64,000 nt of DNA from the human T2T-CHM13v2.0 reference genome, Homo sapiens. Made by a program: the position numbers and the translations under genes. The stretch lies in NCBI RefSeq assembly GCF_009914755.1, contig NC_060944.1. The stretch is one strand, 5' to 3'. Each line of letters starts with the position of its first letter. The stretch's first letter is position 1. Under the pieces are notes generated by a model, which ran no database searches, was not told the origin of the DNA, and saw only the letters and a program-made list of their open reading frames with translations. Shown here one piece after another: positions 27,330 through 61,955 of this stretch.

Positions 27330-27800
27330 AGGAGCGTTCACAGCGGTCCGCGGCAGGTGCAAGGGAGGGAAGGCGAGGGGGTCTGGTGGAGCCTGTCTAC
27401 ACTGGGACCTCAGCGGTCTCCCAACTTGGAGGCTTGGGAGAAGAGGATCCCGCCTGTGGTTGACCGGGGGCGCACAGGCGGAGGAGGCGTTACCTTGGGC
27501 GGGAGGGCGAAGACCACCGGCAGCAGCGCGAGCGGCGTGAACAGCAGCACCAGCAGCCGCCGCGCGCTCCACACCTTCTTGGCCGCTGCTGCCAGCGCCG
27601 CCATCAGCGCGATCGCCTGGCGGTACGGGCCGGCCCGGGACTGCCCCGCCTGGCCCCGGCGCCGGCTTAAAGCCTGGGGGAGGGTCGGGGAGGGGACTGC
27701 GCTGGGGAACCCGCCCTCTCCCTGCTCCTCCTGGAGGAAAAGGGTGGTGCCTGCGCCCCTGGGACCGGGTGAAAGAGGCCCGGGAACGTTGGAGAAAGTT
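27330..27800 (-). promoter_or_regulatory. SLC13A3: CpG-island promoter of SLC13A3
   Basis: Dense CpG/GC around exon 1; GC boxes at 27643-27650 and 27711-27716; TATA-like TTTAAG (minus) at 27666-27671, ~65 bp upstream of the ATG. Boundaries approximate. Confidence 0.85.
27494..27604 (-). CDS. SLC13A3: Na+/dicarboxylate cotransporter NaDC3, coding exon 1 (37 aa, phase-0 donor)
   Basis: Translates MAALAAAAKKVWSARRLLVLLFTPLALLPVVFALPPK, the NaDC3 N-terminus. ATG at 27604-27602, 111 nt, then donor AAG|GTAACG at 27494/27493. Exon 2 lies outside the window, so 1-27493 is intron 1. Confidence 0.97.
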
Positions 27801-28072
27801 AGGCACTAGAATTAGCAAACGGGACCCCAGCCGCAGGGCAGTGTGGCCTTGCCTCTTGGCTTCCCAGCAATGTGGCCTGGGGCAGCTGGCTTATCCTCTC
27901 CTCGCCTCTGTTTACTCGCCTGTGAGATGGCTGAGGATGACAAGGCGAGGATTAAGGCGCGTACTCCTATTACCCGGGTTCAAATCCTGGCACGGCCACT
28001 TACTCACTGCGTGGCCTTCAACAACAGCCTCTGAGCCTGAAAGTGGAGTGGTGATAATAATAGTCTACACCA

Positions 28073-28436
28073 TGGAATACTATGCAGTCACAAAAAAGAA
28101 GGACATCATGTTTTTTGCGGGAACATGGATGGAGCTGGAGGCCATTATCCTTAGCAAACTAACACAGGAACAGAAAACCAAATGCCGCATGTTTTCACTT
28201 ATAAGCGGGAGCTAAATGATGAGAACACATGGACACATAGAGGGGAACAACTGACACTGAAGCCTATGGGAGGCTGGAGGGTGGGAGGAGACAGAGGATC
28301 AGGAAAAATAACTAATGGGCACTAGGCTTAATACCTGGATGACGAAATAATCTGTGCAACAAATCCCCATGACACAAGTTTACCTATACAACAAATCTGC
28401 ACATGTACCCCTGAACTTAAAAGTTAAATTTTTAAA
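28073..28436 (+). mobile_element. 5'-truncated L1PA15/16-like 3' end inserted into a MIR
   Basis: GGAATACTATGCAG..CATGGATGGAGCTGGAGGCCATTATCC..; 14-bp TSD AATAGTCTACACCA (28059-72 / 28437-50). Confidence 0.9.
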
Positions 28437-28568
28437 AATAGTCTACACCAGACAAGAAGGTTGTTAGGAAGTTTAAATGAGATAACACATGTAATGTGAT
28501 TAGCGCAGTGTCTGGCAGAGCAGGTGCTCAATGAGAGTTATTGCTGCTGATGAGTTATTCTTATTTTT

Positions 28569-28876
28569 GGGTTTTTTTTTCTTTTTTTTGAGATGTAGTC
28601 TCACTCTGTAACCCAGGCTGGGCTGGGGAGCAGTGGAGCGATCTCGGATCACTGCAACCTCTGCCTCCCGGGTTCAAGCAATTCTTCTGAGTAGCTGGGA
28701 TTACAGGCGTGTGCCACCATATCTGGCTAATTTTTTTTTTTTTTTTTTTGTATTTTTAGTAGAGATGGGGTTTCACCATTTTGGCCAGGCTGGTCTCGAA
28801 CTCCTGGCCTCATGATCCGCCCATCTCGGGCCTCCCAAAGTTCTGGGATTACAGGTGTGCGTCACCACGCCCGGCC
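28569..28876 (-). mobile_element. AluS
   Basis: Dimer with small internal deletion; TSD GTTATTCTTATTTTT. Confidence 0.93.
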
Positions 28877-29542
28877 GTTATTCTTATTTTTTTTTAAGGG
28901 GGGTGAGTCACTTCTATTCACTTCTGATTATTCTCAGGTAACCATACAGGAGTGCAACTGTTGGGTTGCCCAGTATTTGCAATGCTTAGCTTTTTAAGAC
29001 ACTGTCAACCTGTCTTCCAAAGTGATTGTACTATTTTGCACTTCCATCAACAATGTATGAATCATCCAGTTTCTCCACATCTTTGCCAACATTTGGTGTT
29101 GTCACTGTTTATTTTATTTTAACCATTCTGACAGGGACATAGTAATAGCTCATTGTGGTTTTAATTTCTATTTCCCTAATGGCTAGTGATGTTTAACATC
29201 TTTTCACATGCTAATTTGCCATCTCTATATCCTCTTTGGTGAACTATCTTTTCCTGTCATTTGCCTGTTTTCTACTTGTATTATTTGGTTTTTTACAGTT
29301 GAGTTTTGAAAGTTCTTTGCAAATTCTAGATGTCAGTTCTTTGCCAGTTACGCTGTTTGCAAATATTTCTCCCCGTCTGTAGCTTGTCTTTTCAGCCTCT
29401 TAACTATATATCACCAAGCAAACATTTCTAATTTTGATGTAGTTAAATTTATCAAATTTTTCCTTTGGATGATCGGGTTAAGCTCTCTGCATAGCCTTAG
29501 ACCCCAAAGAGTTTCTCGTATGTTTAGTTTGCTTTGTTCTCA

Positions 29543-29747
29543 CAGAAGTGTCCAAGGAAGAGAATACAGTCATGGGTTCTTAGTTTCTGTTTCTGGTTGG
29601 GCCAGTAAAGCCCCTTCCTCATCCCTCTTTTCCACTCATCACTAGAGACAGAAACTAAAAACCATGGCTTCAGGCTGCTAAAAGCTTAAAACAAACAAAC
29701 AAACAAAAAAAGAACAACAACAAAATAAGGCAGGTTGGACAAGCTTG
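29543..29747 (-). mobile_element. MER107-like hAT MITE inside L1
   Basis: GTGTCCAAGG...TTGGACAAGCTTG termini; AATACAGTCATGGGTTCTTAGTTTCTG core. Confidence 0.65.
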
Positions 29748-30714
29748 TCAGAAGTTTTACAGTTTTGAAACACTGTATTCATTACAAAATAACTTCATTC
29801 TCTCCTCCCACAGCCTCTGGAAACCATCATTCTGCTTTCTGTCTCTATAAATTTGATTAATCTGGATAGCTCATACAAGCGGTATCATGGAATATTTATC
29901 CTTTTGTGATTAGCTTTGTGTCCTTAAGGCTCACCCATGTTGTAGCATGTGTCATAATTCCTTTTTAAGGCTGAATAATATTCCATTGTATGGATATACT
30001 ATATCGTGTTTATCCATTCATTTGTTGATAGACATTGGGTTGTTTCTACCGTTTGGCTATTGTGAGTAATGCAGCTATAAACATAGGTGTACAAAGAGTA
30101 TCTGTCTGAGTCCCTGCTTTCAGTTCTGGGTATATACCCAGAAGTGGAACTGCTGGATCATAAGGTAATTCTGCGCTTTTTGAAAATTATTATTGAGAAA
30201 TGGCCATACTGTTTTTCACAGAGGCTGCACTATTTTACATTCCCACGATGTGCAAGGGTTCCAGTTTCACCACATCCTCACCAACACTTATTTTCTGTGA
30301 TTTTTTTAAATAATAGCCATCCTAATAGGTGTGAAGTGGTATCCCACTGTGATTCTGATGTGCGTTTCTCTAATGATTATTGATGTTGAACATCTTTCCA
30401 TGTGTTTATTGGCCATCTGCGTATCTTGTTTGGAGAAATGTCTATCCAGGGCCTTGGTCCATTTTTTTAGCATTTTGGTTTTTGTCACTTGCATGGCTTT
30501 TTTCAGTAATTGCTCTAGGTATTACATTGCATGTACATAACTTATAAGTTATAATCCACTGGTATTGCCATTTAACCAATTCCAGCAAAGCATAGAAACC
30601 TTACTTCATGCCCCTTTGCCTTACCCAGTTTAAAATACTTCTTTCAATATTTTCTCTACATACATTTAGAACCACATCAGTGTTTTAACTTTTCCTTCAG
30701 CTATCAGGTATAAT

Positions 30715-31012
<298 letters not shown>

Positions 31013-31400
31013 AAGAACTTCCTTTAATCATTCTTTGAGACCAGGTCTGCAGGCAACAAATTCTCTTAGTTTTCCAACATCTGAGAAGGTCTTGATTTCC
31101 CCTTGGTTCTTATTTTTGGTGGACATAGAATTCTGTTATTTTCTTTGAGCACTTGAGAAATGCTATGCACCTACTTTCTGGCCTCCATGGTCTCTGGTGA
31201 AAAATCTGATATCATTTGAGTTATTTCTTCTCCATAGGTAAGGTTCATTTCTCTTTCTCTTGAATAAATATTTTCCAAGATTTCTTTTTTTTGTCTTATG
31301 TTTTGAGAAGTTTGGCCATGATATGTCTTGGTGTGGATTTCCTTGGTTTACCCTAGCAATATTTGGAGTTCACTCAGCTTCTTGGGTCTGTAGATTTATA

Positions 31401-32940
31401 ATATACACATACATATATACACATATATATACACACGTATATACACATATGTATACACATATATACACATATATACACATATATACACACACATATATAC
31501 ACATAGATATGTTCATTCATATATATATATACCAAATATACATATATGTATATATAAGCCAAAAGAGGTTTAATTAGCTCATGGTTATGCAGGCTTTACA
31601 GGAAGCATGGTGCTGGCATCTGCTCGGCTTCTGGGGAGGCCTCAGAGAGCCAACATGTATATATATGTGTGTGTGTGTGGTATATATATAATATATATTT
31701 TTATATAGTATATATTATATATACTATACAAAAATACAGATATACTACACAATAATATTCCATTGTATGGATATACCATATCATGTTTATCCATTCATTT
31801 GTTGATAGACATTGGGTTGTTTCTACCTTTCGGCTATTGTGAGTAATGCAGCTATAAACATGGGTGTACAAAGAGTATCTGTCTGAGTCCCTGCTTTTAT
31901 ACAAAAGAAAATAATATATATATACTATATATATATTTTATACAAAAGAAAATAGTATATATATGCCTTCAGTATATATAATATATAATACTGTATATAC
32001 TATATATACTATACAGTATATATTATACTGTATATAATATATATACTGTACAGTATATATTATACTGTATATAATATATATACTGTACAGTATATTATAT
32101 ATACGTATATAATATACTACAGTATATATATACAGTATACATATATGTATATATGTATGTATATATGTATATATGTATACTACATATACTATATATACAG
32201 TATATATACATATACTACAGTATACTATATATACATATACTACAGTATACTATATATACATATATATTATATATACTGTACAGTCTATATTATACTGTAT
32301 ATAATATACCACACAGTCTATATTATACTGTATGTAATAGACTGTACAGTCTGTATTATATTGTATATAATATAGACTGCACAGTATATATAATACTGTA
32401 TGTGATGTAGACTGTACAGTATATATTATACTGTATACTTATATAGACTGTACAGTATATATTATACTGTATATAATATACTATACAGTATATATTATAC
32501 TGTATATGATATACTATACAGTATATATTATACTGTATATGATATACTATACAGTATATATTATACTGTATATGATATACTATACAGTATATATTATACT
32601 GTATATGATATACTATACAGTATATATTATACTGTATATGATATACTATACAGTATATATTATACTGTATATGATATACTATACAGTATATATTATACTG
32701 TATATGATATACTATACAGTATATATTATACTGTATATGATATACTATACAGTATATATTATACTGTATATGATATACTATACAGTATATATTATACTGT
32801 ATATGATATATACTATACAGTACATATATTATACTGTATATGATATATACTATACAGTACATATATTATACTGTATATGATATATACTATAGTGTATATA
32901 TTATACTGTATATGATATATACTACCTATTATTATATATA
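31401..32940. repeat. AT-rich microsatellite/minisatellite complex with 33-bp unit
   Basis: Unit TATACTATACAGTATATATTATACTGTATATGA, 9 perfect copies 32506-32802 (ORF repeat MIYYTVYIILY x9) plus degenerate flanks. Confidence 0.97.
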
Positions 32941-33351
32941 TAGCCAAATTTGGGAAGTTTTCAGCCATTATTTCTTTGAATAATTTTATGTCCCACTTTC
33001 TTTCTCCTCTCCTTGCATAATTTCAGTGATACAGATGTTAGCTCTTTTGCTGTAGTTCCCCCTGTCCCTGCAGCTCTATTTACCTTTTCAGTCTATTCTC
33101 TCTCTGTTGTTCACAGTGGGTAATTTCCATTGTTCCATGTCCCGGTTCACTGATCCTTCTGCCTTCTCCATTTGCTGTTGAACCCATCCGTTGTATAATA
33201 TTCTTCAGTTATACAATTTTCATTTGATTCTTCTTTGTACCTTCTATTACTTTGCTAAGTCTTCTGTTTCTTTGCTGAGGTTTTCTACTTTTTTCGTTTG
33301 TTTCCAGTGTGACACATCACTGTCATCTTAATATTAAGCATCAAAAGTCAG

Positions 33352-33667
<316 letters not shown>

Positions 33668-33896
33668 GTCAGTGTGAGACCTTCCACTTGTCTTATACAA
33701 CAAGTGACTTTCGTTTGGAACCTGGACATTTTGGGTACTGTATTACGAGATTTTGGCTCTTATTTAAAACTTGTTTTTGCTGACTTCTTTCAGTGCTCTT
33801 GCAAAGGAAATGGGGATGTCACCTCATTACTACAAGACGAAAGTAGAAGTCCAGTTCCCCACCTCATCCTCCATTAATATCTGAGGTGGGGGGAGT

Positions 33897-34283
33897 TGTT
33901 AGGCCGTTTCTGCATTGCTATAAAGAAATATGTGAGGCTGAGTAATTTATAAAGAAAAGAGGTTTAATGAGCTCATCGTTCTGCAAGGTTGTACATGAAA
34001 CATGGCGCTGTCATCTGCTCAGCTTCTGGGGAGGCCTTGGGGAGCTTTTACTCGTGGCAGAAGGCGAACCAGGAGCAGGCAGGTCACATGTCCAGAGCAG
34101 GAGCAAGGCGCTGGGGGGAGGTGCCACACACTTTTAAACAACCAGATTTCCTGAGAACTCATATCTCAAGGACAGCACGGATCCAACCCCATGACCCAAA
34201 CACTTCCCACCAGGCCCCACCTCCAACATTAGGGATTGTATTTCAATATGAGATTTGGACAGGACAAACATCAAAACCATCTC
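33897..34283 (-). mobile_element. MST (MaLR) solo LTR
   Basis: Plus GCATTGCTATAAAGAAATA..TAATTTATAAAGAAAAGAGGTTTAAT..GAGATTTGG..AAACCATCTCA. Confidence 0.85.
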
Positions 34284-34819
34284 AGGGGGGTTCATTACTG
34301 CTGGGGAGTGCTGGGAGTTCTAGCTCCCATCAGCCCTCTCCTGATACCTCCCTGGCTAGAGGAGTAGGAGTGCCTTGTCTTTGCTCCCCATGTGGCTTCC
34401 ATTGACACTGCGGGAGGGTGGTGTCCTTGTTGCTGCTGGGTGGTAGTTACTTTGGAATACTGATACATGCAACACTCTAAATAAATATCAAAAAAAAACC
34501 CATTATGCTATATGAAAGAAGCTGAACATAAAAAAAACTACATTCTGCATAATTATATCTATATGAAGAGTTAAAAGAGGCAAACTTCAATTATAGAAAC
34601 CATATAGTGATTGCCAAGCAATGGGGGTCAAAAGACAGGATCAACTGGAAACAGCATGAGGAAATGTATAGGGTGATAGATGTGTTCTGCTGACTGTGGT
34701 GGTGGTAATACAGTTGTATATAATTATTAAATTCCATCAAACTGATCATTTAAAATAGGTGAATTTTATTATATATAGTTATACCTCAATAAAGCCAGAA
34801 CAGAAGTGCATTGAGGTCA

Positions 34820-34990
<171 letters not shown>

Positions 34991-35715
34991 TCATTGGATC
35001 AAGTTGGCTGATCGTGTTCTTCAAATTTAGATTCTTAAAGTCTCCAATTCAATTATGGATTTGTCTATTTCTCACTTTAGTTCTGTCAATTTTCACTTCA
35101 TAGATTTTGAAGCTCTGTTATTAAATGTGAACACACTTAAGATTGTTATGTCTTTATTGGTGGATTCACCTTTCTATCATTCTAAAATCTCTCTCTTTAT
35201 CACCATAGATGCCCTTTGTGTTGAAGTCCACTTTATCTGATATTTAAATAGCCACAATAGTTTTCTTATGCTCAAAGTTTGTATTGTATATCTTTTCCAC
35301 TTTTTTTAAACTGTCAACCTGTTTCTATATGTACAATGTGTTTATTCTATACAGTGTATTGATGAACTCTGCTTTTTTATCTAGTCTAACATTCTCTGAT
35401 ATTTTAATTGGAATGTCTAATCAATTTACATCTAATATAATTATTTATCTGGTTGGATTTAAGTGTCTTATTTTGCTATTAGTTTTCTATTTATCTTATT
35501 TGTTCTTTGTTCCTCTCTTCCTCCTCTCTTGCTTTCTTTTGTATCAACTGATTATATTTTGGTGCATTTTATTTCCTCTATTAATTTTTTAGCTTTTTTC
35601 TGTTTTATTATTTTAGTGGTTTCTCTAGAGATTATGATATGCATCTTTATCACAGTCTACCTTTGCACAATGATATATTATTTTAGGAACAATATAAGAG
35701 CCTTACAATAATGGT

Positions 35716-36033
35716 GGCCAAGTATGGTTGCTCATGCTTGTAATCCCAGCAATCTGGGAGGCTGAGGAGGGTGTTGCTTGAGTTCAGGAGTTTGAGACCA
35801 GCCTGGCCAACATGGTGAAACCTCATCTCTACAAAAAATACAAAAATTAGCTGAGCGTAGTTGCAGGCATCTGTAGTCCCAGCTACCGGGGAGGCTGAGG
35901 TGGGAGGATAGCTCGAGCCCGGGGAGGTGGAGGTTGCAGTGAGCTGAGATCACAGTACTGCACTCCAGCCTGGGTGACAGAGTGAGACCCTATCCCCCCC
36001 CCCCAAAAAAAAAAAGAAAAAACAAAGAAAGAA
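35716..36033 (+). mobile_element. AluJ/Sx (a FLAM monomer lies nearby at 34815-34945)
   Basis: TSD AGCCTTACAATAATGG. Confidence 0.92.
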
Positions 36034-36136
36034 AGCCTTACAATAATGGAAATAATGTAAAAAAATTCCATTTACCACCCTCTTCTCTTCCTTTATACTT
36101 TTATTGTCTTTTTAAATTTGTGTATTCTATAAACCC

Positions 36137-36338
36137 AAGTATGTGCTGAAGATAACTCATGCTAGCTTATGAGAAATGACTGTTACTCTTTCAGAAAATT
36201 TGTGAGCCAGCTGTAGAACTGATGGTAGCATGAAATCACCCATAGCAAGAATATTTACACCATGAAATTAATAAAATTCTATAAATAAGGGCTTTTCTTC
36301 CAGCAGCCAATTGTTAAACATTTACCAGAACACCACTG
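36137..36338 (+). mobile_element. MER63A-like hAT element
   Basis: Ends GTTAAACATTTACCAGAACACCACTG; internal TATTTACACCATG. Confidence 0.7.
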
Positions 36339-36713
36339 TTTGAATTACACAACATATTGTTTTAATTTTATAAACAATCAATAGTCTTTAAAAGACATGT
36401 ATAAATTATATAAATAAAAGATAAATGTACTTTAAAAAGTATTTCATATTTTCCCAAATATTTACCCTATCTCTTCACTTCTTCCTGCAGATCCAGGATC
36501 ATTTCTCTTTCAGGTGCTAGCATTTCTTTTACCATTTCTTATAGTGCTGGCTTGTTGAAAGGAAATTCTCTCAGCTTCTGTTTATCTGAAAGTATCTTTA
36601 TTTTTGCTTTTGTTTTTGAAGTTACTTTCACCAGATATAGAAGTCTAGATTGACAATTTTTTTTCCTTTAGTACTTAAAGATCTCATTCCATTGTGTTCA
36701 AGTTTCTATTGTT

Positions 36714-36815
36714 TCTGGTAAGAGATTAGCCACCATTCATATCATTGATCCCCTGTAAGTAATGTCTGGTAAGAAATTAGCCACCATTCATATCATTGTT
36801 CCCCTGTAAGTAATG
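36714..36815. repeat. 51-bp tandem duplication
   Basis: TCTGGTAAGA(G/A)ATTAGCCACCATTCATATCATTG(A/T)TCCCCTGTAAGTAATG x2. Confidence 0.92.
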
Positions 36816-37563
36816 CCCCATTTTTATTCTGGCTACTTGTAAGATCTCTTTATCTTTCACTTTTCAGCAGTTTGACTGAAACGTTTAGGTGTAGTGTTTC
36901 CCTTATATTTATTTACTCGGAGTTTGCTGAGCTGCTTGGATCTGTGCATTGATGTCTTTCATCAATTTTGGTATATTTCCCGTCATTATCTCTTCAAATA
37001 CCTCTTTTGCCCCATTCTCTCTCTCCTTTCCTTCTAGAATTCCAGTAACATTTATGTTAGAGCATTTGGTATCATCTTACAAATTTCAGACTCTTTGTTC
37101 TTTATTTTTTTCACTTTTCCTTCTCTACGTGTTTCAAACAGGCATTTTCTATTACCTGTCTTTAGTGATTCCTGTCTTTGTTGTGCCCAGTCTCTTATAG
37201 ATCTAAGTCTTCATTTCTGATGTAGTATTTTTCATCTCTATAATTTTCACTAGTTCTTTTAATAGTTTCCAGGTCTCTGCTGAAGTTTTCCATTTGTTTA
37301 TGCATGTTGTTCTTTAGATTCTTTCATTTTTAGAATTTTGTTGTAGATTTTTTAAGTCTCTGGGAATTCCAGAATCTAGGCCAAATCTGAATCTGCTTCT
37401 ATTAATACTTTTCTTTAATGACTGTCACATTTTATTATTGTCTGTGTGGTTGCTAATCTTTGAACGCATTGTTGACATTTTTGTAAGAAAGAACAGTAGA
37501 GAATGAAGTAAATAATATTTACCTCCAGAAGGGGGTACTCCCCTTTTCCTGTAAAACCGATAG

Positions 37564-37644
37564 AGTATGGAATTAACCAGTCTTACCTGCAGTATGGAGT
37601 TAATCGGTTTTACCCGTAGTATGGAGTTAACCAGTCTTACCTGT
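37564..37644. repeat. 27-bp x3 minisatellite
   Basis: AGTATGGA(A/G)TTAACCAGTCTTACCTG-like units. Confidence 0.88.
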
Positions 37645-38803
37645 GGTTGAACTGGATTTCAGCTTTGGTGCAGTTTTAGATTGTTTCAGTTCATCACTGG
37701 CTCCAAATGTTTTGAGGGTAGATTTAGAACTTTTCCTTCAGCAGATCTGAGACCGGAGCACTGGTGAGATTTTAGGAATCTGCCTTTGCTTCCCAGAAGA
37801 GTTACCCAGTTTGGGAATGTTGGGAGTTCTCTCTCTTGTGTAGAGCCAAGTTGCCATGGGGCTTTTTGGTCATTGGTGAGTTCTCTTTGTTCTCAAATCC
37901 TGCCCCCCATTTCCTGCACCTGGGAGGATTTTTTCAGCCTAGTTGTTGTTCATCTGGCCTTTGGAGGGCTATGGTTCTACACATTTTGAAGGTCTGGAAT
38001 GACTGGTAGGGGTGTCTTTTCACTATAAGCTTCTGATAGTCAAAAGCCAGGCATGCCTGGGAGGGGAGGGAATCTCTCAATTCTTCTACCTCAGGTTTTC
38101 TGTCTGTTCTCCTGACCTGTTCCCCTGTGCCTACTTTTGAGAGTGTCTTATACTTAAGAGAGGCCCCTTGCTTTCAGGGGAATCCTTCTTATCCCTCCTT
38201 TTATCACCTGTTTTGGTGTAATATCCCGCACTTGATAAATCCCATGGTAAGACTTGGTGGGCAGATTCAGACCTATTCAGTGAGTAGAGTTTATCTCCAT
38301 TATAAGCTACACAGAAGCTCTCATGTTATTGAAAATTTAGCTGGTTTCTTCCTGCCCATCCATGGCAGTCTCCTCTTTCTCCAGCAGTTGTGTTAGGATT
38401 TGGAGCAGCTATGAGTCTCTTCTCCCCCATTATGATCTTGGCATTTCCTCCTGGAGGTTAGCTCCTTTAGGTTTCTTTGTGTCCTCAGCTTTCCATGAAG
38501 TTTTTAAAACTATGATTTTATAGCTAATAAAGCCTATTTTGATGGGGTGGTGTTAGAGTGGGAGCAACAGTCTCTTATCATTTCCTATACTAGAACCAGA
38601 AGTGGAACTCTTTCCAAAAAAATAATAACAAAAACATGTTTCTAATAATGCCATCAGACATTGTTGTAGTCTATCAAAATACCAGGACCATTGGGTCATT
38701 CCTGCCTACCATGTGAAAGTCAAAGAATATTTCATTTGGGGGAAAAACTCAAGTCTTTCAAGATTAAACTCCAAGTAGAATACAGAGACTTATGGGTACC
38801 CGA

Positions 38804-38895
38804 TATAGCAGACGAAAACGATATTACAAAAAGGAAGTAAGCACCTGCTATAGCAGGGAAAGGTTATATTACAAAAAGGAACTAAGCACACTGCT
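38804..38895. repeat. ~45-bp x2 degenerate tandem repeat
   Basis: TATAGCAG...ATATTACAAAAAGGAA.TAAGCAC twice. Confidence 0.8.
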
Positions 38896-42724: not shown

Positions 42725-43085
<361 letters not shown>

Positions 43086-46221: not shown

Positions 46222-46317
46222 TATAGAAATCCATATAAAACTTCATGCTGGCCAGTGTGTAAAGAAAGAAAAAAAATACATGCATACTTAACAATGCAGA
46301 AGGATAAATAAAAAATT

Positions 46318-46500
46318 GATTACCTTGCTTGTCTCCTAGAAGGTGCACTGGGAGGCTTGGGAGGCTGGTGTAGCAGGGACCACCCATATGTAGCTTCCTT
46401 TGGACCTTAGTGCCACTTCCCTGGAATACATGAGCAGCTTTAAAAACAATTCTCAGGCTTCCCTACAGTTGGTGTATCTATAGGATTAAGATCTGGCCAA
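46318..46500 (-). other. Candidate alternative upstream non-coding exon of SLC13A3 (3' end at 46324)
   Basis: Donor CAAG|GTAATC at 46324/46323 in unique sequence beside MLT1 LTR fragments. I recall SLC13A3 having upstream alternative 5' exons. The 5' boundary is a guess. Confidence 0.35.
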
Positions 46501-48821: not shown

Positions 48822-49333
48822 ATGTGGTTATAAAACATAGCCACAAATCCTGTGACACCCTTTCCACTGGGAGGCAGGGCCTATTCCCCCTCCTGATGAA
48901 CCTAGGTGAGCTTCTGACTGCTTTGACCAACAGCTTACCGTGGAAGTGACCCGATACGGCTTCCAGGGCATGAATAAGGCCACACAGCTTCTGCCTGATT
49001 TCTAGAACACTTGTCCTTGGAGACCTGGACTACTGCCCTGAGGCTGTCATGCTGGAGAGGCCATGAGTATCTGCTCTGGTTGACAGCTGAGCCCAGACTT
49101 CCAGCCAGCCCTATCAAGGCACAAGACACATGAATGAAGCTGTCTTAGGCCCCCCAGATGAGTTCATCTGAATGGCTGAGTGACCCTGAGTGCATTCCTC
49201 GATGCCACGGAGAACAGAAGAATCACCCAGCTGAGCCCCACTCTAATTCTTGCCCCACAAAATCATGATGTATTATTGCATGATTATTGTTTAAGTTTGG
49301 GGGATAGTTTGTCAAGCAGCAGATGTTTAACAC
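48822..49333 (+). mobile_element. MLT1 LTR
   Basis: GACTGCTTTGACCAA, GAAGAATCACCCAGCTGAGCCC, TTTGGGGATAGTTTG motifs. Confidence 0.7.
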
Positions 49334-50867
49334 TGAAACTGTGCACCTGGTGGGCTCATATCACCCCTCTGAGCCTCCATGGCCTTGTGGAAAATGTAGA
49401 TAATAAAAACAACTACATCATAGGTTTATGATAAGTCTCAGAGAATGAAAAGCCAGGTGCTGTTCTAAGGGCTGTTCCCATTTATTCGTTTAGCACAGGA
49501 CCAGGTACCTATCAACCCCTAATTACAGGGAAGTATGATTTCTAATTGGGAAATAACACGCTATGTGAGGTATGAATAAATATATTAACTATGGTCATCA
49601 GCCCAGTTATGGAGGCTTGCTGTGTGCCAAGCACAGTGCTAGGCATTTACATGAACGATCAGGTCCTGCCTGGTCCTTCAACCCTTCCCCCATTCCCTTC
49701 CATTGCTGGGGGCTGTCCTCTTTGCAGCCTTCTTTCTGCTCCTTGAGCATAGCAAGTTCTCTGCTTTTACAAATGCTCAGTCTGCCTGGATCTCCCTGTG
49801 CACCCTCCCCAAGCTCCCGCCACCATCACCATGACTGGTTCCTTCTACTCACTCAGTCCTCAGCTCAAATGTCACCTCCTCAGAGGGTCCCCACCCCCGA
49901 CCTCCTGATCTAAGGAAACGCAGCCTTCCTCAAGTTCACGTCACTCACCCTGTACAAAATCCCCAAATAGCATGATTCGTCGTCTGAAAGTGTTTACCAC
50001 TAGGTTAAACTCCAGGGGAACAAGGGAGTCCCAATTGCCCCCTGCCACACTCCCAGTGCCTGGAACATGGAGAGGAGCAATAAATATTGAAGGATGAAAC
50101 ACGCTCTACATCATTGGGTCTTACTGTTAGGAATATCAGTCAAAATCATGACTATTGTTCATTCAGCAAGGATTAATTGAGCACCTATTGTATACCAGGC
50201 ATCATTCTGGGTGCTGGGGATACAACAGTGATCAAATCAGACACCAGTTTTGCTCTCACAGAGTTTTCATTTTAGTAGCTCTGTGATAAGATACATGTGT
50301 GAAATACACAGCATGTCACGTGGAACTTAGTGCTATGAAGAAAAATAAGGTAGGCAGTGGGAGAGAGTATGAGGGGAATCTTGGCACCAAATTCCATTCT
50401 TCCCTCCACAGAAGGGACTTTCGGTTCCCCTCCCCTCCACCTCCGCACCCTGACCCCCATACCCCGTCAACATCTCTCAGTGTGACATTTTGTTTGAGGT
50501 CTCTGCAGCTCCAAGAACAATATTGGCTTTGATGCAGGTCCCAGCAGAGAGCCCTCAGACTGGAGGGGGGATTAGTTCCCCCTTCTTTCCCCTGGAGGGG
50601 GAAGTCAAACAGTTTGGCCTTGTGGGGCCTTTCCTCACTATGGGGAAGGGGGCAGGCCTGGGCCTTCCTGGCCTGGATCGTTGACTAACCCTGGGTTCTG
50701 GGCCATCCCCTGGCCTCCTCCATCCCAGGCAGAGAGTCAAGGTTTACAAACACGGAGAGGCCTTTGATCGGCAGCAGACCCCCAGTGTTCTGTTTTTTGT
50801 TCCAAACCTCAGGCCAGGACTATACTCTGTTTTGCCTCCAGCAGGGGAGACAGTGGGTAGGTGGGGA

Positions 50868-50871
50868 GTGC

Positions 50872-50915
<44 letters not shown>
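50868..50915. repeat. (CG)8(TG)14 alternating purine-pyrimidine tract
   Basis: Read directly from the sequence. Confidence 0.95.
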
Positions 50916-50918
<3 letters not shown>

Positions 50919-51422
50919 TTTGGAGGAGTGGAAGGAATCAGAGGAAGGCTCACATGGATCCTTGATTTTCTTTCCAACAGGCAGGCTAGGTTTGGAAGAG
51001 AGAATTCAATTCAATTCAAAATACCTAAGGAGCACCTACTAAATCCCAGGCACCATGGTAGAAATTAGGGCTAGAGCAGTGAACCAAACAGAGCTCCCTG
51101 CCCAGAGCCCCAATTCTAGAGGGGGCCACAGACAGCAAACAAATGAGCAAGTGAATACAGAGGCTGTGGGGGGCCATGATGCGCTTGACAGGAATGAAGC
51201 TGGGCAGTCGATGGGGCTGGGATGAGGGTGCTGTGGGGGCTTCCCAGACAAAGTGGCATTTGGTAGAGACCTGAAGGAAATGAGGGAGGCAGCCATGTGG
51301 CGATCAGTGGGAAAAGTGTTTCAGGGAAAGGGAACAGCTGCTATGAAGGCCCTGAGATGTGCGCAAGGCTGGCATGTTGGAAGAACAGCAAGGAGCCCAG
51401 TGTGGCTGACCCAGGGGAATAG

Positions 51423-53694
<2,272 letters not shown>

Positions 53695-55024
53695 TTTTAA
53701 TTATATTTTGAAAGTAAAGCTGGCAGGATCTTTTGCTGGATCGAATGGGGGCGAGGGGAGCTGGTGAAAGACAGGAGTCAAAGAGAGCCCCCAGGTTTGG
53801 GGTGAAGTTCTGGATTCCTGGGGCTGCCATTTACTAAGATGGGAAACTTGTGATGGGGGCAGAGACTATGGGTGAAACCAGGGGTTTGTTTTGGGACCTG
53901 TTGAGTTTTGGGATGCCCGTGAGGCCCTGGGGAAGATACATGCCATCTTATCTAAAGGTTGCAAATTCAATGCTCTCAGGGACAAGTAACAAGAGGAGTA
54001 AGACATATCTCACTCTCCTCTTACCTCTGTAAGAAGAACAACGGGACCAGCGTGATGACAAACAGTGACTCAGAGCCAAAGAGCAATAGGGAGCAGTGGA
54101 GACTGGGGCAAATTGGAAAGCACAGGCCCCTCTAAAAGAAGAGGTGTTAGAACAGGGTCCCGTGTGGCAAGATCTCCTGACGATGTTTCCAGAGAAGCCA
54201 GATGTCTAGATTTTTACATATGAAACAATCCATATGTATGTTTGAAATTGTTTAACATTGGCATATGAAATTGTTTAACATTGGCAACTAAAAAGCAAAC
54301 ATTATGTGAACCCAAGAAAACTGCCTACAGTTACAGCCACCCACTGGACCTAGATCAAATCTTCCACTTTACAGGTGGAGAAACTGAGGCCCAGGGAAGT
54401 CTAGAATTTTCCCCAAACTCACAGAAGGAGTTGGTGGCAGACTTTGGCCAGGCCTTGAATAGGCTGGGTCTCAGTGCCGGGTTCTCACCTCCCAGGCCTT
54501 GGTAAGAAGGGGCTGGAGTTAGTCTGTCTCCTTCACTTTGATCTAAATAGAGAGGCTCTAACCTGACAGTAAAAGGCAGCAAGATGCTATGAACAAGTAT
54601 GGCTTTGGCGGCCTGGGGTCTCTATCTGTGTTGGTTAGGAATGCTTTTGGCTTCAAGTGATGGAAAATCTGATTTATGGTAGCTTCAGCTTTGGAGACGT
54701 TTACCTGTGCATATAATAAGTCCAGAAAGTGAGGTCTGAGGTCACTAAGAACAGACTCACACTCTGCCCATCCCTCTACCTCAACATCTTCCTCTCATTG
54801 ACTCTTTACCATCAGGGGTGGCCTCATGGCCTCCAGATTGCTGCTGAACCTCCGGTTATTGCCATTGCATTGAAAAGCAGACATTGTTGATGGGGATGTG
54901 CTGGTGTCAGAGCAGGGAGAGAATTCTTACATCTTCTCACCTTCTAGGAGAAGCAAAATCTTCCACAGAAGCAATCTTCCCAGATTTGCTCTTGTATCTT
55001 ATTGGCCAGAAAAGGGTCACATGC

Positions 55025-55443
55025 TGACACGGTTTGGAGGTTTGTCCCCTCCAAATCTCAGGTTGAAATGTGACCTCCAGTGTAGGAGGTGGGGCTGGTG
55101 GGAGGTACTGGATCATGGCGGCAGATCCCTCGTGAATGGCTTGGTGCCCTCTCTGTGGTAATCTCTGAGTGAGCCCTGGCTCTGTTAGTTCACAAGACAG
55201 CCAGTTGTTTAAAGGAGCCCGGCTCCTCCCCTTCTCTCTCTTGTTCCTGCTTTCACCATGGGACACTGCCTGCTCCCCCTTTGCCTTCCACCATGATCGG
55301 AAGCTTCCTGAGGCCCTCACCAGAAGCAGATGCTGGAGCCATGCTTGTACAGCCTGCAGAACTGTAAGCCAATTAAGCCTCTTTTCCCTATAAATTACCC
55401 AGCCTCAGGTGTTTCTTTACAGCAATGCAAAAGGCCTAATACA
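55025..55443 (+). mobile_element. MSTB-like solo LTR
   Basis: TGACACGGTTTGGA..TTTGTCCCCTCCAAATCTCA...CTAATACA with perfect TSD CATGC. Confidence 0.9.
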
Positions 55444-55553
55444 CATGCCCATTCCTAATCAGGAACCGATCTGACCTTTCCTGAGATGAAGCTATCTTCG
55501 CCTAAAAATATCTAGACTAATTGGGATTCTGTCCAAAAGGAATAAGAAGGGTA

Positions 55554-56248
<695 letters not shown>

Positions 56249-57804
56249 TTACAGGCTGATGACTCTGGGAAAGTTGCTTAGCACCTCTGAGCCTCTACTC
56301 CCCCATCTGTAAAATGGGTATGGCAGATGGTATTTTGTTTCTTGCCCTCTCAGCATCCATTTCCTATTTTTCTGATGACATACTTTGATTTTCCTTCAGG
56401 TAGGAGTTTTCAGAACAGCAGCCTCAGCATCACCTGGGAAGTTGTTAGCAATGCAGATTCTCAGGCCAGTCTCAGACCTTTGATTCAGAAGCTTTGGAAT
56501 GGCAGCCTGGCAAGGTGGGAAAGTGCGTCTTGTCTACCCTTAGCTTATAAGGGGAACAAATGGAGCTGTATTATAATCACCTGTTTGCTGTTCTCTAAAA
56601 ATAGTAGCCACTTAAATGACATCACGATAATGATATTGCTCATTGTCACCATGTGCCATGCACTGTGGTAGTGCTCCAACTGCTCCACGTACCTCCTTAT
56701 ATGGATGCTTGTGGTGGACATGGATGTGCGACCCAGATCCCTTAAGGAAGCACCTATTGCCCCAGAGGCAGGGAGAGTGGTCAGCAGTCAGCTCCTGTGG
56801 TCAGCTCCTCCAGGGATCAACTCACAGTAGGCAGAGAGTGGCCTTGCCAGAGCTCGTGTCCCTTCCAGGCGTGACACCCCCAACGACTGCATAATGTGAG
56901 ACTGCAAAGTCCTGGCCATCTCAGGCCATCTTGTGACATCTCTGAAGAGCCATTTCAACTGCAGAGCTCCCGCAGAATTGACTGAAGCTGCTGCTGGGTC
57001 TCAGCTCCAGTTCTCCCTCTGCCCGCTCCTGTGTACTCTGCCCTCTCCTGTGTCCTCTGCCATCTCCTGTGTCCTCCATGCTGTGGATGTTGATCCCAAG
57101 GGCAGCTCAACTGTATCTGAGTCTGCTTCCTGGGGATCCTGACCAGTGACAATACTCACAGCAACTCCACCATGCAGCACCACTGTGAGTCCATTTTACA
57201 GATGAGGACACTGAGGCTCAGAGAGGTACAAGGAGGGGATCCTAGGCCATGCACCTGGTAAACAAGGAGACATGGGCTGGGAAGCCAGCACATTTGTGAA
57301 TAGAGAAGTGGCATGTTCTGGCTTTAAAAGGGTCCCCTGGGCTGCTGAGTAAGGAAGAACGGAAGGGGCCAGGACAAGGGCCTCCCAGGCCGCGGCTGGA
57401 CCTTGTCATCCCTGCAGCTTCTTCAGAAGAGCCAGACGCAGCCCATGTGCTCACTAAGTACCCAGTGAAGGAGTGAGTGAAGAGAGAATGGATGAAAACA
57501 TTAAGACTGGAAGGAACTAGACATCCTCACGTCCGTCTCCCTCATTACATGGTGCATAATTAGCACAGTGCCTGCTACACTTAGGTGCTCAGCTAAGGTG
57601 GCGTTGAGTGAATAAATGAACACGTTCAAGGAAAGGAGGGAGGGAGAGAGGGGCATGGACTTGGGAAGAAAAGATGGAAGTAGAGGAAGGAGAAGGGGAG
57701 AAAAGAAAGGGAGGAAGAAAGAGGGGAAGGAGGGAGGAGGGAGGAGGAAGAGAAGAGAGAAAGTGAAGGGAGGTTTACCTGTTCGCACCAAGAATGACAG
57801 TAAC

Positions 57805-57834
57805 TTACGACCCCTGGTGGCAGAAAAGTGCACA
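57805..57834 (-). promoter_or_regulatory. Candidate CTCF site
   Basis: Minus TGCACTTTTCTGCCACCAGGGGTCGT: close to core CCACCAGGGGGCGC plus an upstream TGCA module. Confidence 0.55.
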
Positions 57835-57906
57835 GTCCATTGAAATTGCGGTGCCTAGAATTAAAGGACGCAAGGGAAGACTCCTAGTTCCCCAAGAGGT
57901 TCAGGC

Positions 57907-58318
57907 TGCATTCATTTGTTTTCTATTGCTTTTAACAGAATACTTAAAACTGGGTAATTTATAAAGAAAAGGAGTTTATTTCTTACTGTTATGGAGGAAT
58001 ACAAGGTCGAGGGGGCACATCTGGTGGGGGCACAGCCTTCTTGAAGGTGGGGACTCTACAGAGACCTGAGGCGGCACATGGCATCATGTGACAAGGGGGC
58101 TGGGTGTGCTAGCTCAGGTCTCTCTTCCTCTTATAAAGCCACCAGTCCTGCTCTCATAATAACCCATTAATCTATTAGTCCACACGTGGATTAATCAATT
58201 CATGAGGGCAGAGGCCTTAGGATCCAATCACCTCTTAAAGGCCCCATCTTTCAATACTGCTAAGTTGGGCATTCAGTTTCCAACACATGAAATACGGGGA
58301 ACACATTCAAACCACAGC
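57907..58318 (-). mobile_element. MST/MLT1A-like solo LTR
   Basis: CTGGGTAATTTATAAAGAAAAG..TTTATTTC...CATTCAAACCACAGCA. Confidence 0.8.
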
Positions 58319-59425
58319 AGGTGCAGACCCTTGTAAGAACATGGGCTCCTCCATCAGGGCTCTGGCAGTCAGTGACAGCTGGGTTAGGACTAGGGTGAAG
58401 CAAGTGAGGCACAAATTTAAGGAGGCATCCAAAAACTCAATAATCCAAAAAATATCTTAATGGGATGGTTTTAAAAATCAAATTGGCAAACTATCGCCCA
58501 CGGGCCGACTGTCTGATTTGTAAATAAAGTTTTATTGGAACCAGGGTCAGGAATATGGTGGATTCTTGCAGTTAAATCAGAGATTATGCCCTGCATGCCT
58601 TCGCTAATGTAGATGTTCCCAACCCCTAAGGTAGCACGTGGTGTGGGCGTGGTCAGCTCAGCTCATCCAACAATAAGAACACAGCTTGTTTGGAGCACTC
58701 ACTATGCCAGCTTTAAAGCAACTCTACTCTGGAACTACCTCTCTTGGCCCCATGGACTGGCCACAAAAGCACTTTTAAATGTTCCAGGAATGTGGGCCTG
58801 TGTCAAGTGTTGGTCGCATCTCGGTGTCATATCACATTTCCCTGGTTCTGCCATTTACTAACTGAGTGGCCTGGGGCAGGACTTAATTTCTCTGTGTCTC
58901 ATTTGCTTCTTCTGTAAAATGGGTTAATGCATGGAAAGAACGTAACTCTATAAAGTCAGCTGCTGTTGTTAAAAGCATGGGTCTGAATCCCAGCTCTGTC
59001 ACTTATTGTGACCCTAGGACATATTTCCTATTGCCCAGTGTTTCCTCCACCATAAAATGGAGATTATAATCCTCATCTGGTTGGGTTTAGCTGGGGATTC
59101 ACACAAAACTGCTAGTGCTGTTGGCTCAGCACTGCAAAGCACCTGCAGCTCCCCGGTGGACGTCAAGGGATCTGAAAGTGCAGAGGGTTCCTTAGCCCTT
59201 TGTGAGAGGAACTAGGAAAGGAATCCACTGTTCACCTAGGAACATTTGTTAACCCTTTATTTCCCACTGTGGGCCAAGGGCTAAGTGTGCAGATGGACGA
59301 TTCTCCTCCTGGGGGCATTTGTGACGTTTCTCCAGTCTCCAATATCTGCCACTCTCCCTCTTGATACTTGCAAAGATCATTACTGCTTCCTGACAGCTGC
59401 GGCTACCCCCACTGCTACTGGCCAC

Positions 59426-60056
59426 TGATACCGGAGATAGAAATTATTTAGGCAGATATTCAGGGCAAAAGAGTCCTCGGCGGAATTTCCCTTCTAACAA
59501 AAAAGCAGCCCCAGAAATCATTTCTTTTCTAACAAAGAGCAGCCTGAAAAATCCAGCTGCAAACATAGATAAGGAAGCTGGAAGCTTGCACGGGGGAATG
59601 CTGGTAGCTGTGCCAATAGAGAAGGGCTAACTGGGGGCCAGGCATGTCTAACACGAGGCTCCATCTTCCCTTTTCTTTTACCACGTGTACAGTAATAAAG
59701 AAATGGGCAACATGGCACAGCTCAGGCAGAGAACTCGCCTGCATAATAAAAGACTGGGGTGGGGGTGCCGAGATTCATACCCTGTGCCAATGGCACACCT
59801 GGGTCCAACCAGTTTTTCACACCCTATGTAGATCAGACAGCACCTCCTCACCAGCTCATCTATAAAACTCCCTTGCATTTCACTGCAGATCCAGCAACCC
59901 ATTTTTCCAGGACCCCTCTTGTAGCAGAGCGCTATTCTCTTTCTTTCAACTATTAAATTTCTGCTCTTCACCTCACTCTTTGTGGGTCCCTGTCCTTGAT
60001 CTCCGTGACCATGAGACAACGAGCCTCGGGTGTTACCCCCAGACAAGCCTGCTTCT
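59426..60056 (+). mobile_element. ERV1 solo LTR, MER61-like
   Basis: TGATAC..AGAAATTATTTAGGCAGATA..GAGTCCTCGG start, CCCCAGACAA end, 4-bp TSD CCAC (59422-25 / 60057-60), ATTAAA near 3' end. Confidence 0.8.
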
Positions 60057-60661
60057 CCACCGCGTTCCCTGCCTCAGTGGCTGCCAGGTCCTGTGCCAAG
60101 CAGTTGGAGCATGCTCGCCACAGCTTCCACCCTGGCTACTGTTTTTACTGGACCAGCTGGTTTCGGTCGCCTTTTCACTTCCAGGTTTCTTGCTTCCACT
60201 CTTGCCCTCTATGGTTTTCTGCCAGCAACCAATGCAACCCTTTCAAAACAATCAGGTATCACCCTGTTAAAAACCCTGAGTCCCATTAAGAACAAAACCC
60301 AACCTTGTAACAGGGCCCTGCAGGATCCGGCCCCGCCTCTCCCATCTCATGTTCTGCTCCTCCCCCTTGCTCACTAATGCCGGCCACACCAGCCTTGCTG
60401 TCGGGGATGTTTCTTCTTCGCCAACTTCGCACGCCACAGCCTGCCTGGGATATACTCTCTTCATCTCCTGTGTTTCTGGTTTTCCTTCACATCTTCACTC
60501 ATCACTGTCTGAAACTGTCTTATGTTCCCCAGGAAAGTAAGCTTCATGTTCCCCTCTATTAGATCTCCAGTGCCCGGCGCATAGTGAGTACTAGTGTATT
60601 AGTCCGTTCTCACACTGCTGATAAAGACATACCCGAGACCGGGTAATTTATAAAGGAAAAG

Positions 60662-60667
60662 TTTAAT
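60662..60667 (-). terminator. ATTAAA poly(A) signal inside the THE1 LTR, candidate distal PAS of TP53RK
   Basis: Plus TTTAAT at the position of the native MaLR LTR PAS, followed by U/GU-rich sequence on minus. Confidence 0.65.
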
Positions 60668-60674
60668 AACTCAC

Positions 60675-60795
60675 AGTTCAGCATGGCTGGGGATGCCTCA
60701 GAAAACTTATAATCATGGCAGATGGGGAAACAAACACACCCTTCTCCACGTGGCAGCAGGAAGTGCCGAACAAGAGGGAAAAGCCCCTTATAAAA
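60675..60795 (-). promoter_or_regulatory. Candidate LTR promoter and non-coding first exon for a long SLC13A3 transcript
   Basis: TTTTATAAG TATA box 60795-60787, predicted TSS ~60762, donor ACT|GTGAGT at 60675/60674, second donor CGG|GTATGT at 60633/60632. Confidence 0.55.
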
Positions 60796-61910: not shown

Positions 61911-61955
61911 TATTCTTACAAAAGGACAGGCGCTGTGTCTGTCTGGCTCACCATT

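What the first reader, a model, noticed from the sequence alone, without database searches (positions are those of the whole stretch)
27557..60795. Promoter choice could switch NaDC3 membrane polarity by removing the exon-1 sorting signal
Seen: AKKVWSARR (27583-27557) and the first hydrophobic segment are encoded wholly in exon 1, which upstream-initiated transcripts (60675 or 46324 donors) would probably skip. Known, from recollection: this peptide was reported as the NaDC3 basolateral targeting signal; NaDC3 is basolateral in kidney but reported in placental brush border; THE1 LTRs are placenta-active. Inference: the LTR-driven N-truncated isoform may be an apical, mislocalised or dominant-negative transporter.
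Basis: inference. Interest (0 to 1): 0.72.

Follow-up and report, generated by a model that had tools for sequence, protein, structure and literature searches.

The report
LTR-started SLC13A3 transcripts skipping exon 1
An old retroviral LTR upstream of the human SLC13A3 gene can start transcripts that skip the exon encoding the transporter's membrane-sorting signal, but they also lose the first membrane helix and are poorly set up for translation, so a switch of membrane side is unlikely.

Summary
Exon 1 (27494-27642, minus strand) encodes NaDC3 residues 1-37, with AKKVWSARR at 27583-27557 and the first hydrophobic segment.

The upstream exon 60675-60764 lies in a 362-bp solo THE1-type LTR (60595-60956) with 5-bp target-site duplications. 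This LTR sits at the end of the TP53RK 3'UTR. Its TATAA is 28 nt before the annotated start, its GTGAGT donor ends the exon, and its ATTAAA ends TP53RK mRNA.

Exon 46324-46420 is single-copy and preceded by a CAG acceptor, so it is probably a cassette exon rather than a first exon.

I located exon 2 outside the window. Without exon 1, the first NaDC3-frame AUG is Met48, inside TM2, in a weak context and behind 2-3 upstream AUGs. With the cassette exon, an 87-codon out-of-frame ORF overlaps it.

The loss therefore covers the cytosolic tail, TM1 and part of TM2, not just the sorting signal.

Most likely these are low-output or non-productive LTR or read-through transcripts (TP53RK-SLC13A3 is a listed conjoined gene). 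An apical functional isoform is not excluded but is improbable. No expression data could be examined here.

The parts
27494..27642 (-). SLC13A3 canonical exon 1 (5'UTR plus codons 1-37 of NaDC3), donor AAG|GTAACG
   Evidence: hub RefSeq table
27557..27583 (-). codons 8-16, AKKVWSARR. This is the peptide I recall as the published basolateral signal; only the title of Bai et al. 2006 was seen.
   Evidence: reference lists
27503..27556 (-). codons 17-34, first hydrophobic segment (TM1)
   Evidence: hydropathy peak at residues 16-33; paralogue NaDC1 has preTM1 = residues 1-12
27250..27999 (.). CpG-island promoter around exon 1 (GC 0.67-0.68, CpG o/e 0.70-0.73)
46324..46420 (-). 97-nt single-copy alternative exon, acceptor TTCCAG|G and donor AAG|GTAATC. 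Its AUG opens an 87-codon out-of-frame ORF when joined to exon 2.
   Evidence: hub table
60595..60956 (-). 362-bp solo THE1-type (MaLR) LTR with TG...CA ends, in the sense orientation of both TP53RK and SLC13A3
60957..60961 (-). target-site duplication CTAGT (5' side)
60590..60594 (-). target-site duplication CTAGT (3' side)
60788..60792 (-). LTR TATAA box, 28 nt upstream of the annotated transcript start at 60764
60675..60764 (-). LTR-derived alternative first exon of SLC13A3. It contains two upstream AUGs (60716-60714 and 60684-60682).
   Evidence: hub table
60669..60674 (-). LTR splice donor GTGAGT
60662..60667 (-). LTR poly(A) signal ATTAAA, 18 nt before the annotated TP53RK 3' end (60644)
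   Evidence: hub table
60644..63031 (-). TP53RK 3'UTR, which ends inside the LTR and overlaps the SLC13A3 alternative first exon on the same strand
   Evidence: hub table

Best explanation
The window holds the 5' end of human SLC13A3.

Canonical start. The CpG-island promoter drives exon 1, which encodes the cytosolic tail with AKKVWSARR plus TM1 of NaDC3.

The LTR. A solo THE1-type LTR lies 33 kb upstream, in sense orientation at the very end of the TP53RK 3'UTR. It plays both retroviral LTR roles for two host genes:
- Its ATTAAA terminates TP53RK mRNA.
- Its own TATA box, start site and GTGAGT donor launch a minor class of SLC13A3 transcripts. These splice past exon 1 to exon 2, directly or through a 97-nt cassette exon.

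Consequence for coding. These transcripts cannot encode residues 1-37. The first NaDC3-frame AUG is Met48, a conserved TM2 residue. It has C at -3 and follows two short uORFs. With the cassette exon, an 87-codon out-of-frame ORF also covers Met48, Met73 and Met99.

Conclusion. I conclude these are mostly low-output or non-productive by-products of an LTR promoter, or of TP53RK read-through. Any 555-residue product would lack two scaffold helices and would probably be unstable or retained. It would not be a correctly folded transporter redirected to the apical membrane.

Shown: the anatomy, frames, uORFs and inherited LTR signals. Inferred: low translation, misfolding and low abundance.
For: Exon 1 and exon 2:
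- The exon 1 product is identical to NaDC3 residues 1-37.
- Exon 2 was found through PF00939 in the own genome at C20:48349623-48349888 (window -10377..-10112). It starts EGRCLFVILLM, so Met48 is the first in-frame Met.
- The PDB numbering (LSVTALL... at residues 59-77) agrees.

In-silico joins:
- 1a+exon 2: uORFs of 12 and 3 codons, then ctgctcATGg.
- 1a+1b+exon 2: a third uAUG opens an 87-codon frame-shifted ORF.

Position of Met48:
- It lies in the second hydropathy peak.
- It is conserved in the NaDC1 paralogue, LMALFWCTEALP.
- In NaDC1, Leu47 is named as a TM2 pocket residue.
- In the SLC13 fold the scaffold is TM1-4 plus TM7-9, and the inverted repeat starts at TM2.

LTR:
- TG..CA ends and a CTAGT duplication on both sides.
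- At least 7902 first-look candidates genome-wide.
- Among 27 other copies: TATAA in 23, the start-site pentamer in 23, the exact donor nonamer in 20, ATTAAA in 24.
- Full-length match (1-362, 74.7%, E=5.6e-63) to the only such element in the 9.9 kb fetched upstream of the CRH coding exon (3.7 kb from the mature-peptide match), which I take to be the published THE1B.

Read-through: TP53RK-SLC13A3 is listed as conjoined gene CGHSA0579, with RNA 'YES' and known hybrid protein 'NO'.
Against: - No expression, CAGE, Ribo-seq or protein data could be examined, so low abundance and poor translation are inferences.
- Short uORFs allow leaky scanning or reinitiation, so some Met48 initiation is plausible.
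- By my reasoning (no call shows it), removing TM1 and TM2 together as a pair would keep the N-in topology of the rest.
- The profile of the related family CitMHS (PF03600) starts at residue 50, so most of the conserved core is retained.
- RefSeq curators accepted these models as coding NM_ transcripts, according to the hub table.
- A review states that SLC13A3 is apical in placenta and synaptosomes but basolateral in hepatocytes and kidney. That difference still needs an explanation.
- A rhesus placenta cDNA of unknown identity maps to 'SLC13A3 (Intron)'.
Confidence: 0.6

Rival explanations
1. LTR-initiated transcripts are translated from Met48 into a 555-residue NaDC3 that lacks the basolateral signal. 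This protein reaches the apical (microvillous) membrane or acts as a dominant-negative partner, which would explain apical NaDC3 in primate placenta.
For: - The signal-bearing exon is skipped (hub table).
- The LTR has an intact TATA box, start site and donor.
- A review reports apical placental versus basolateral renal location.
- THE1B elements are statistically associated with placenta-enriched genes.
- Alternative N-termini switch polarity in chicken kidney AE1-3/AE1-4 (abstract start in the listing, PMC2168086).
- The CitMHS profile begins at residue 50.
Against: - The truncation removes TM1 and part of TM2, not only the tail.
- Met48 follows 2-3 uAUGs in a weak context.
- In the THE1B case I read, the element acts as an enhancer, LTR-gene fusion transcripts were of low abundance (detected by PCR only), and other THE1 subfamilies showed no placental coexpression signal. 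The subfamily here is unresolved (74.7% to that THE1B copy).
- From recollection, not checked: the full-length 602-residue cDNA was itself cloned from placenta.
- Cell-type differences in how sorting signals are read, for example in retinal pigment epithelium (abstract start in the listing, PMC2148181), offer a simpler route to reversed polarity.
Confidence: 0.06
2. The 60675 donor is used mainly by TP53RK transcripts that fail to polyadenylate 31 nt downstream and instead splice into SLC13A3 exon 2 (a conjoined or cis-spliced read-through). On this view the annotated start at 60764 is an incomplete cDNA end, and the LTR promoter is silent.
For: - The exon lies inside the TP53RK terminal exon on the same strand, and the donor is 8 nt upstream of ATTAAA (hub table).
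- TP53RK-SLC13A3 is in the ConjoinG list with RNA support.
- It was also called from prostate RNA-seq.
Against: - The annotated start is 28 nt downstream of a TATAA at a CA dinucleotide, the geometry expected of a real LTR start.
- The prostate candidate failed Sanger validation ('N' in Table 1).
- The ConjoinG entry could itself rest on the same LTR-started cDNAs, because they overlap a TP53RK exon. The ConjoinG supplements could not be read.
Confidence: 0.22
3. Upstream-initiated transcripts use an unannotated acceptor just upstream of the exon 1 AUG. They would then still encode full-length NaDC3, and the LTR would be a tissue-specific alternative promoter for the normal protein.
For: - Pyrimidine-rich CAG|G sites lie 69, 126 and 154 nt upstream of the AUG (27674, 27731, 27759).
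- There is no upstream AUG in the 400 nt before it.
Against: - No such exon appears in the hub's RefSeq table.
- The sites were scored only by pyrimidine content, not by a splice-site model.
- They lie inside an active CpG-island promoter.
Confidence: 0.05

Closest known systems
LTR-derived alternative promoters of host genes. The example recalled, not checked here, is THE1B-driven CSF1R transcripts in Hodgkin lymphoma.
   Same: A solo MaLR/THE1-type LTR in sense orientation tens of kb upstream. Its own TATA box, start site and donor splice to exon 2 of the host gene and bypass the normal first exon.
   Different: Here, bypassing exon 1 removes coding sequence (residues 1-47 in effect). The same LTR also serves as the poly(A) site of the upstream gene. 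Activity in any tissue is unverified.
THE1B upstream of CRH, which controls placental CRH expression (PMC6166974; abstract and passages read)
   Same: The two elements are homologous end to end (1-362, 74.7% identity). They belong to an anthropoid-specific LTR family with a reported placental link.
   Different: At CRH the element acts as an enhancer through a DLX3 site created at the insertion junction, and fusion transcripts were of low abundance (PCR only). Here the annotated role is promoter, first exon and poly(A) site. The lower identity suggests another subfamily.
Chicken kidney AE1-3/AE1-4 anion exchanger variants (PMC2168086; only the abstract start was seen, in the listing)
   Same: Alternative N-termini decide apical versus basolateral accumulation in MDCK cells.
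   Different: The AE1 variants differ only in the cytoplasmic N-terminal domain, and the membrane domain is intact. The SLC13A3 truncation cuts into the membrane domain (TM1 and part of TM2).
Conjoined genes or cis-spliced read-through transcripts (ConjoinG CGHSA0579 TP53RK-SLC13A3)
   Same: Adjacent same-strand genes, with an RNA that shares an exon with each.
   Different: The shared exon may be an LTR-started first exon that merely overlaps the TP53RK 3'UTR, rather than true read-through. The prostate candidate was not validated by Sanger sequencing.

Membership tests
SLC13/DASS transporter NaDC3 (SLC13A3), N-terminal exons | Sequence identity of the exon 1 product with NaDC3, and a family profile match for the next exon | tested here: met
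   37 of 37 identical to 8uvc_A residues 1-37. Exon 2 peptide matches PF00939 positions 32-120 at E=5.3e-16. The exon 1 peptide alone gives no Pfam match above cut-off.
Solo LTR of an LTR retrotransposon | TG...CA termini, short target-site duplication, many dispersed full-length copies | tested here: met
   TGATAGGG...AATACA with CTAGT on both flanks. At least 7902 first-look candidates; 40 scored, of which 39 are other copies at 83-86%, mostly full length.
THE1 (MaLR) LTR family | Homology to a copy named THE1 in print, or classification against a repeat library | tested here: inconclusive
   Full-length 74.7% match (E=5.6e-63) to the only LTR-like element in the 9.9 kb fetched upstream of the CRH coding exon (3.7 kb from the mature-peptide match), taken to be the published THE1B. 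No Dfam or RepeatMasker tool was available, so the subfamily (A/B/C/D, or MST) is unresolved. My recognition of the sequence as THE1 is otherwise recollection.
LTR-derived alternative promoter | Transcript start inside the LTR downstream of its TATA box, and an LTR donor spliced to a host exon | tested here: met
   TATAA at 60792-60788 and the annotated start at 60764 (28 nt apart); donor ACT|GTGAGT at the annotated exon end 60675 (hub table). This is met at the level of sequence plus annotation only.
LTR-derived alternative promoter | Capped transcripts and tissue-specific (placental) activity | not testable with these tools
   No CAGE or RNA-seq access. SLC13A3 and TP53RK are absent from the 3 readable supplements of PMC6166974.
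Polarity switch by alternative N-terminus (AE1-3/AE1-4 type) | Isoforms differ only in a cytosolic N-terminal segment, with the membrane domain intact | tested here: not met
   The first available in-frame AUG is Met48, within the second hydrophobic segment. TM1 and part of TM2 are lost.
Polarity switch by alternative N-terminus (AE1-3/AE1-4 type) | Both isoforms are made and localise to opposite membranes | not testable with these tools
   Needs protein and cell-biology data.
Conjoined gene / read-through TP53RK-SLC13A3 | RNA that joins exons of both same-strand neighbours | tested here: inconclusive
   The same strand and exon overlap are confirmed (hub table). The pair is listed in ConjoinG but scored 'N' for Sanger validation in prostate. 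The supplements were unreadable.

The most novel reading that the evidence does not exclude
In anthropoid primates, a THE1-type LTR insertion at the TP53RK 3' end created a second SLC13A3 promoter. Its transcripts are translated from Met48 into a tail-less, TM1-less NaDC3. This protein escapes basolateral sorting (or heterodimerises with full-length protein) and places dicarboxylate/N-acetylaspartate uptake on the apical face of syncytiotrophoblast, and perhaps of choroid plexus or astrocyte membranes. It would be a primate-specific polarity switch driven by a transposable element.
Probability: 0.04. Interest if true: 0.75.

Novelty: new member of a known kind. Interest (0 to 1): 0.3.

Why it matters
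- NaDC3 is reported on opposite membrane faces in placenta and kidney, and the reason is not settled.
- SLC13A3 loss causes a leukoencephalopathy, and the gene's 5' region carries the strongest common-variant signals for white-matter perivascular space burden. How this region chooses promoters and first exons therefore has medical interest.
- If the LTR-started isoform were made and mis-sorted, it would be a clean example of a transposable element rewiring transporter polarity.
- On the present evidence the locus is instead a tidy but ordinary case. One solo LTR donates a poly(A) site to the upstream gene and a weak, coding-disruptive alternative first exon to the downstream gene.

Tried and rejected
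Literature:
- 'AKKVWSARR' is in 0 papers.
- Bai et al. 2006 is not held. I saw only its title in two reference lists, so the identity of the motif with the published signal is recollection.
- The NaDC3 structure paper and Wang et al. 2000 are not held.
- 'SLC13A3'+'THE1' gave 2 irrelevant papers (judged from titles and abstract starts only).
- 'SLC13A3'+'LTR' gave 3 papers. I read passages of two (PMC2996955; PMC6862657 for other terms) and saw only the listing of the third; none links an LTR to the gene.
- Two broad searches returned mostly unrelated sorting papers.
- The ConjoinG supplements are unreadable.
- The THE1B paper's 3 readable supplements do not mention SLC13A3 or TP53RK.

Sequence work:
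- My translation of the TP53RK exon from 63510 was out of frame and uninformative. The TP53RK CDS end is taken from the hub table.
- I considered that exon 46324-46420 was also LTR- or repeat-derived. I rejected this because it matches only itself in the genome.
- I did not fold the truncated protein, because a spliced sequence is not the letter-for-letter product of one locus.
- I built no LTR consensus. Copies were compared pairwise only. Those 27 copies are the ones most similar to the window copy, so the feature frequencies may be biased upward.


Full report
**Observation**

The minus strand of 27494-27642 is SLC13A3 exon 1. Its coding part (27604-27494) translates to MAALAAAAKKVWSARRLLVLLFTPLALLPVVFALPPK. 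This is identical at 37 of 37 positions to residues 1-37 of the solved human NaDC3 chain 8uvc_A (E=8.8e-15).

AKKVWSARR is residues 8-16, which is exactly 27583-27557. The first hydropathy peak (residues 16-33) ends before the exon does.

The exon sits in a CpG island: 27250-27999 has GC 0.67-0.68 and CpG o/e 0.70-0.73.

**The upstream exons**

Exon 60675-60764 lies inside a 362-bp element at 60956-60595 on the minus strand. The element begins TG, ends CA, and is flanked on both sides by CTAGT.

The own-genome search found at least 7902 first-look candidates. It scored 40, of which 39 are other copies at 83-86% identity, most of them full length. The element also aligns end to end (1-362, 74.7%, E=5.6e-63) with the only similar element in the 9.9 kb that I fetched upstream of the CRH coding exon, 3.7 kb from the CRH mature-peptide match. 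[quoted passage not shown] I therefore call it a THE1-type solo LTR. The subfamily is unresolved, and no repeat library was available.

The LTR carries these signals:
- TATAA at 60792-60788, 28 nt before the annotated start at 60764.
- The donor ACT|GTGAGT at the exon end.
- ATTAAA at 60667-60662, 8 nt beyond the donor and 18 nt before the annotated TP53RK 3' end (60644).

In pairwise comparison with 27 other copies, these signals are family features rather than local gains:

| Signal | Copies that keep it (of 27) |
|---|---|
| TATAA | 23 |
| Start-site pentamer | 23 |
| Exact donor nonamer | 20 |
| ATTAAA | 24 |

Those 27 are the copies most similar to this one, so the frequencies may be biased upward.

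One solo LTR thus supplies the poly(A) site of TP53RK and an alternative first exon of SLC13A3.

The second exon, 46324-46420, matches only itself in the genome. It is preceded by TTCCAG|G. It looks like a cassette exon, not an LTR promoter.

**What skipping exon 1 does**

Exon 2 is outside the window. I found it with PF00939 in the own genome and read it in L009. It spans C20:48349623-48349888 (window -10377..-10112) and is 266 nt long. Its acceptor is CCTGCAG|GAA and its donor CAG|GTAAGA. It begins EGRCLFVILLMAVYW.

Exon 1 ends in phase 0, so the first in-frame Met without it is Met48. The residue numbers in the PDB alignment agree.

In-silico joins give:
- Exon 1a + exon 2: uORFs of 12 and 3 codons, then Met48 in the context ctgctcATGg.
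- Exon 1a + 1b + exon 2: a further AUG opens an 87-codon ORF in another frame. It overlaps Met48, Met73 and Met99.

Met48 lies in the second hydrophobic peak. It is conserved in the NaDC1 paralogue, where the neighbouring Leu47 is a named TM2 residue.

In the SLC13 fold the scaffold is TM1-4 plus TM7-9, and the inverted repeat begins at TM2 (passages of PMC10980263). The loss is therefore the tail, TM1 and part of TM2, not a detachable sorting tag.

- A review states that SLC13A3 is apical in placenta and synaptosomes and basolateral in hepatocytes and renal proximal tubule.
- THE1B elements are associated with placenta-enriched genes.
- Alternative N-termini do switch polarity in chicken AE1 (abstract start in the listing).
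- The CitMHS profile begins at residue 50, so most of the conserved core remains.
- By my own reasoning, not shown by any search, removing TM1 and TM2 as a pair would preserve the topology of the rest.
- A rhesus placenta cDNA of unknown nature maps to 'SLC13A3 (Intron)'.

- The uORF-laden leaders and the weak Met48 context.
- The structural cost of the truncation.
- In the THE1B case I read, the element works as an enhancer through a junction-specific DLX3 site. Fusion transcripts were of low abundance (PCR only), and other THE1 subfamilies showed no placental signal.
- From recollection only: the 602-residue cDNA was cloned from placenta.
- That AKKVWSARR is the published signal is also recollection. 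I saw only the title of Bai et al. 2006, the paper is not held, and the peptide string occurs in 0 held papers.

**Rivals**

- TP53RK-SLC13A3 is a listed conjoined gene with RNA support. It was also a prostate RNA-seq candidate that failed Sanger validation. The LTR donor lies within the TP53RK terminal exon, so read-through splicing is a real alternative. However, the TATA-to-start geometry favours LTR initiation.
- Pyrimidine-rich CAG|G sites lie 69-154 nt upstream of the exon 1 AUG, with no upstream AUG. They leave open an unannotated route to full-length protein.

**Comparison and novelty**

The transcripts are in RefSeq (hub table), the gene pair is in ConjoinG, and the localisation difference is in print.

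Searches for SLC13A3 with THE1 or LTR found no paper linking them. I read passages of PMC2996955. PMC6862657 was read only for other terms. The rest I judged from listings alone. This is a new member of a known kind: an LTR-derived alternative promoter plus donated poly(A) site.

The polarity-switch reading fails the defining feature of the AE1-type precedent, because the membrane domain is not intact.

**Verdict**

| Item | Assessment |
|---|---|
| Observation | confirmed |
| Interest | 0.3 |
| Low-output or non-productive LTR-started transcripts | 0.6 |
| TP53RK read-through | 0.22 |
| Functional polarity-switched isoform | about 0.05 |

Noticed in passing
window about 1800-63000 (positions inferred, not mapped): A GWAS of white-matter perivascular space burden reports six independent signals at SLC13A3. 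One, rs72485816, is annotated in the TP53RK 3'UTR, which is 60644-63031 here. The other five lie 12.3, 38.1, 44.6, 56.1 and 58.8 kb below it in hg19, so if the assemblies are colinear all six fall inside this window. rs56104388 would fall near 48.3-50.7 kb, upstream of canonical exon 1 and close to the RefSeq silencer at 49742-49898.
   Followed up: partly
window 60644-60764: The TP53RK terminal exon and the SLC13A3 alternative first exon overlap on the same strand. A 5' splice site lies 8 nt upstream of the TP53RK poly(A) hexamer, so splicing and polyadenylation may compete here.
   Followed up: partly
window 27666-27931: Six pyrimidine-rich AG sites lie within 400 nt upstream of the exon 1 AUG (for example CAG|G at 27674, 27731 and 27759), with no upstream AUG. 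They are possible cryptic acceptors that would preserve full-length NaDC3.
   Followed up: no
window 32172-32876 and 31938-32942: A long tandem array with alternating 14- and 19-nt spacing (33-nt period); many of its copies are 98% alike. It lies between exon 1 and the cassette exon and looks like a minisatellite or VNTR (families D1 and D5).
   Followed up: no
window about 51500-53530: An Alu-containing block of about 1 kb appears twice in tandem. Spacing is about 1005 nt, with 90% identity for 51682-51862 against 52691-52871 and an identical 68-mer at 51987 and 52992. It lies next to the RefSeq enhancer at 50811-51323 (families D9 and D12).
   Followed up: no
L009 1504-1767 (exon 2, outside the window): The Pfam CitMHS profile (PF03600) starts at exon 2 residue 13, which is NaDC3 residue 50, two residues after Met48. 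The Met itself is conserved in the NaDC1 paralogue.
   Followed up: partly
not placed (rhesus chr20): A rhesus placenta full-length cDNA, FS723142 (4 exons), is listed as an unknown transcript in 'SLC13A3 (Intron)'. It could be a placental transcript from the region between the LTR and exon 2.
   Followed up: no
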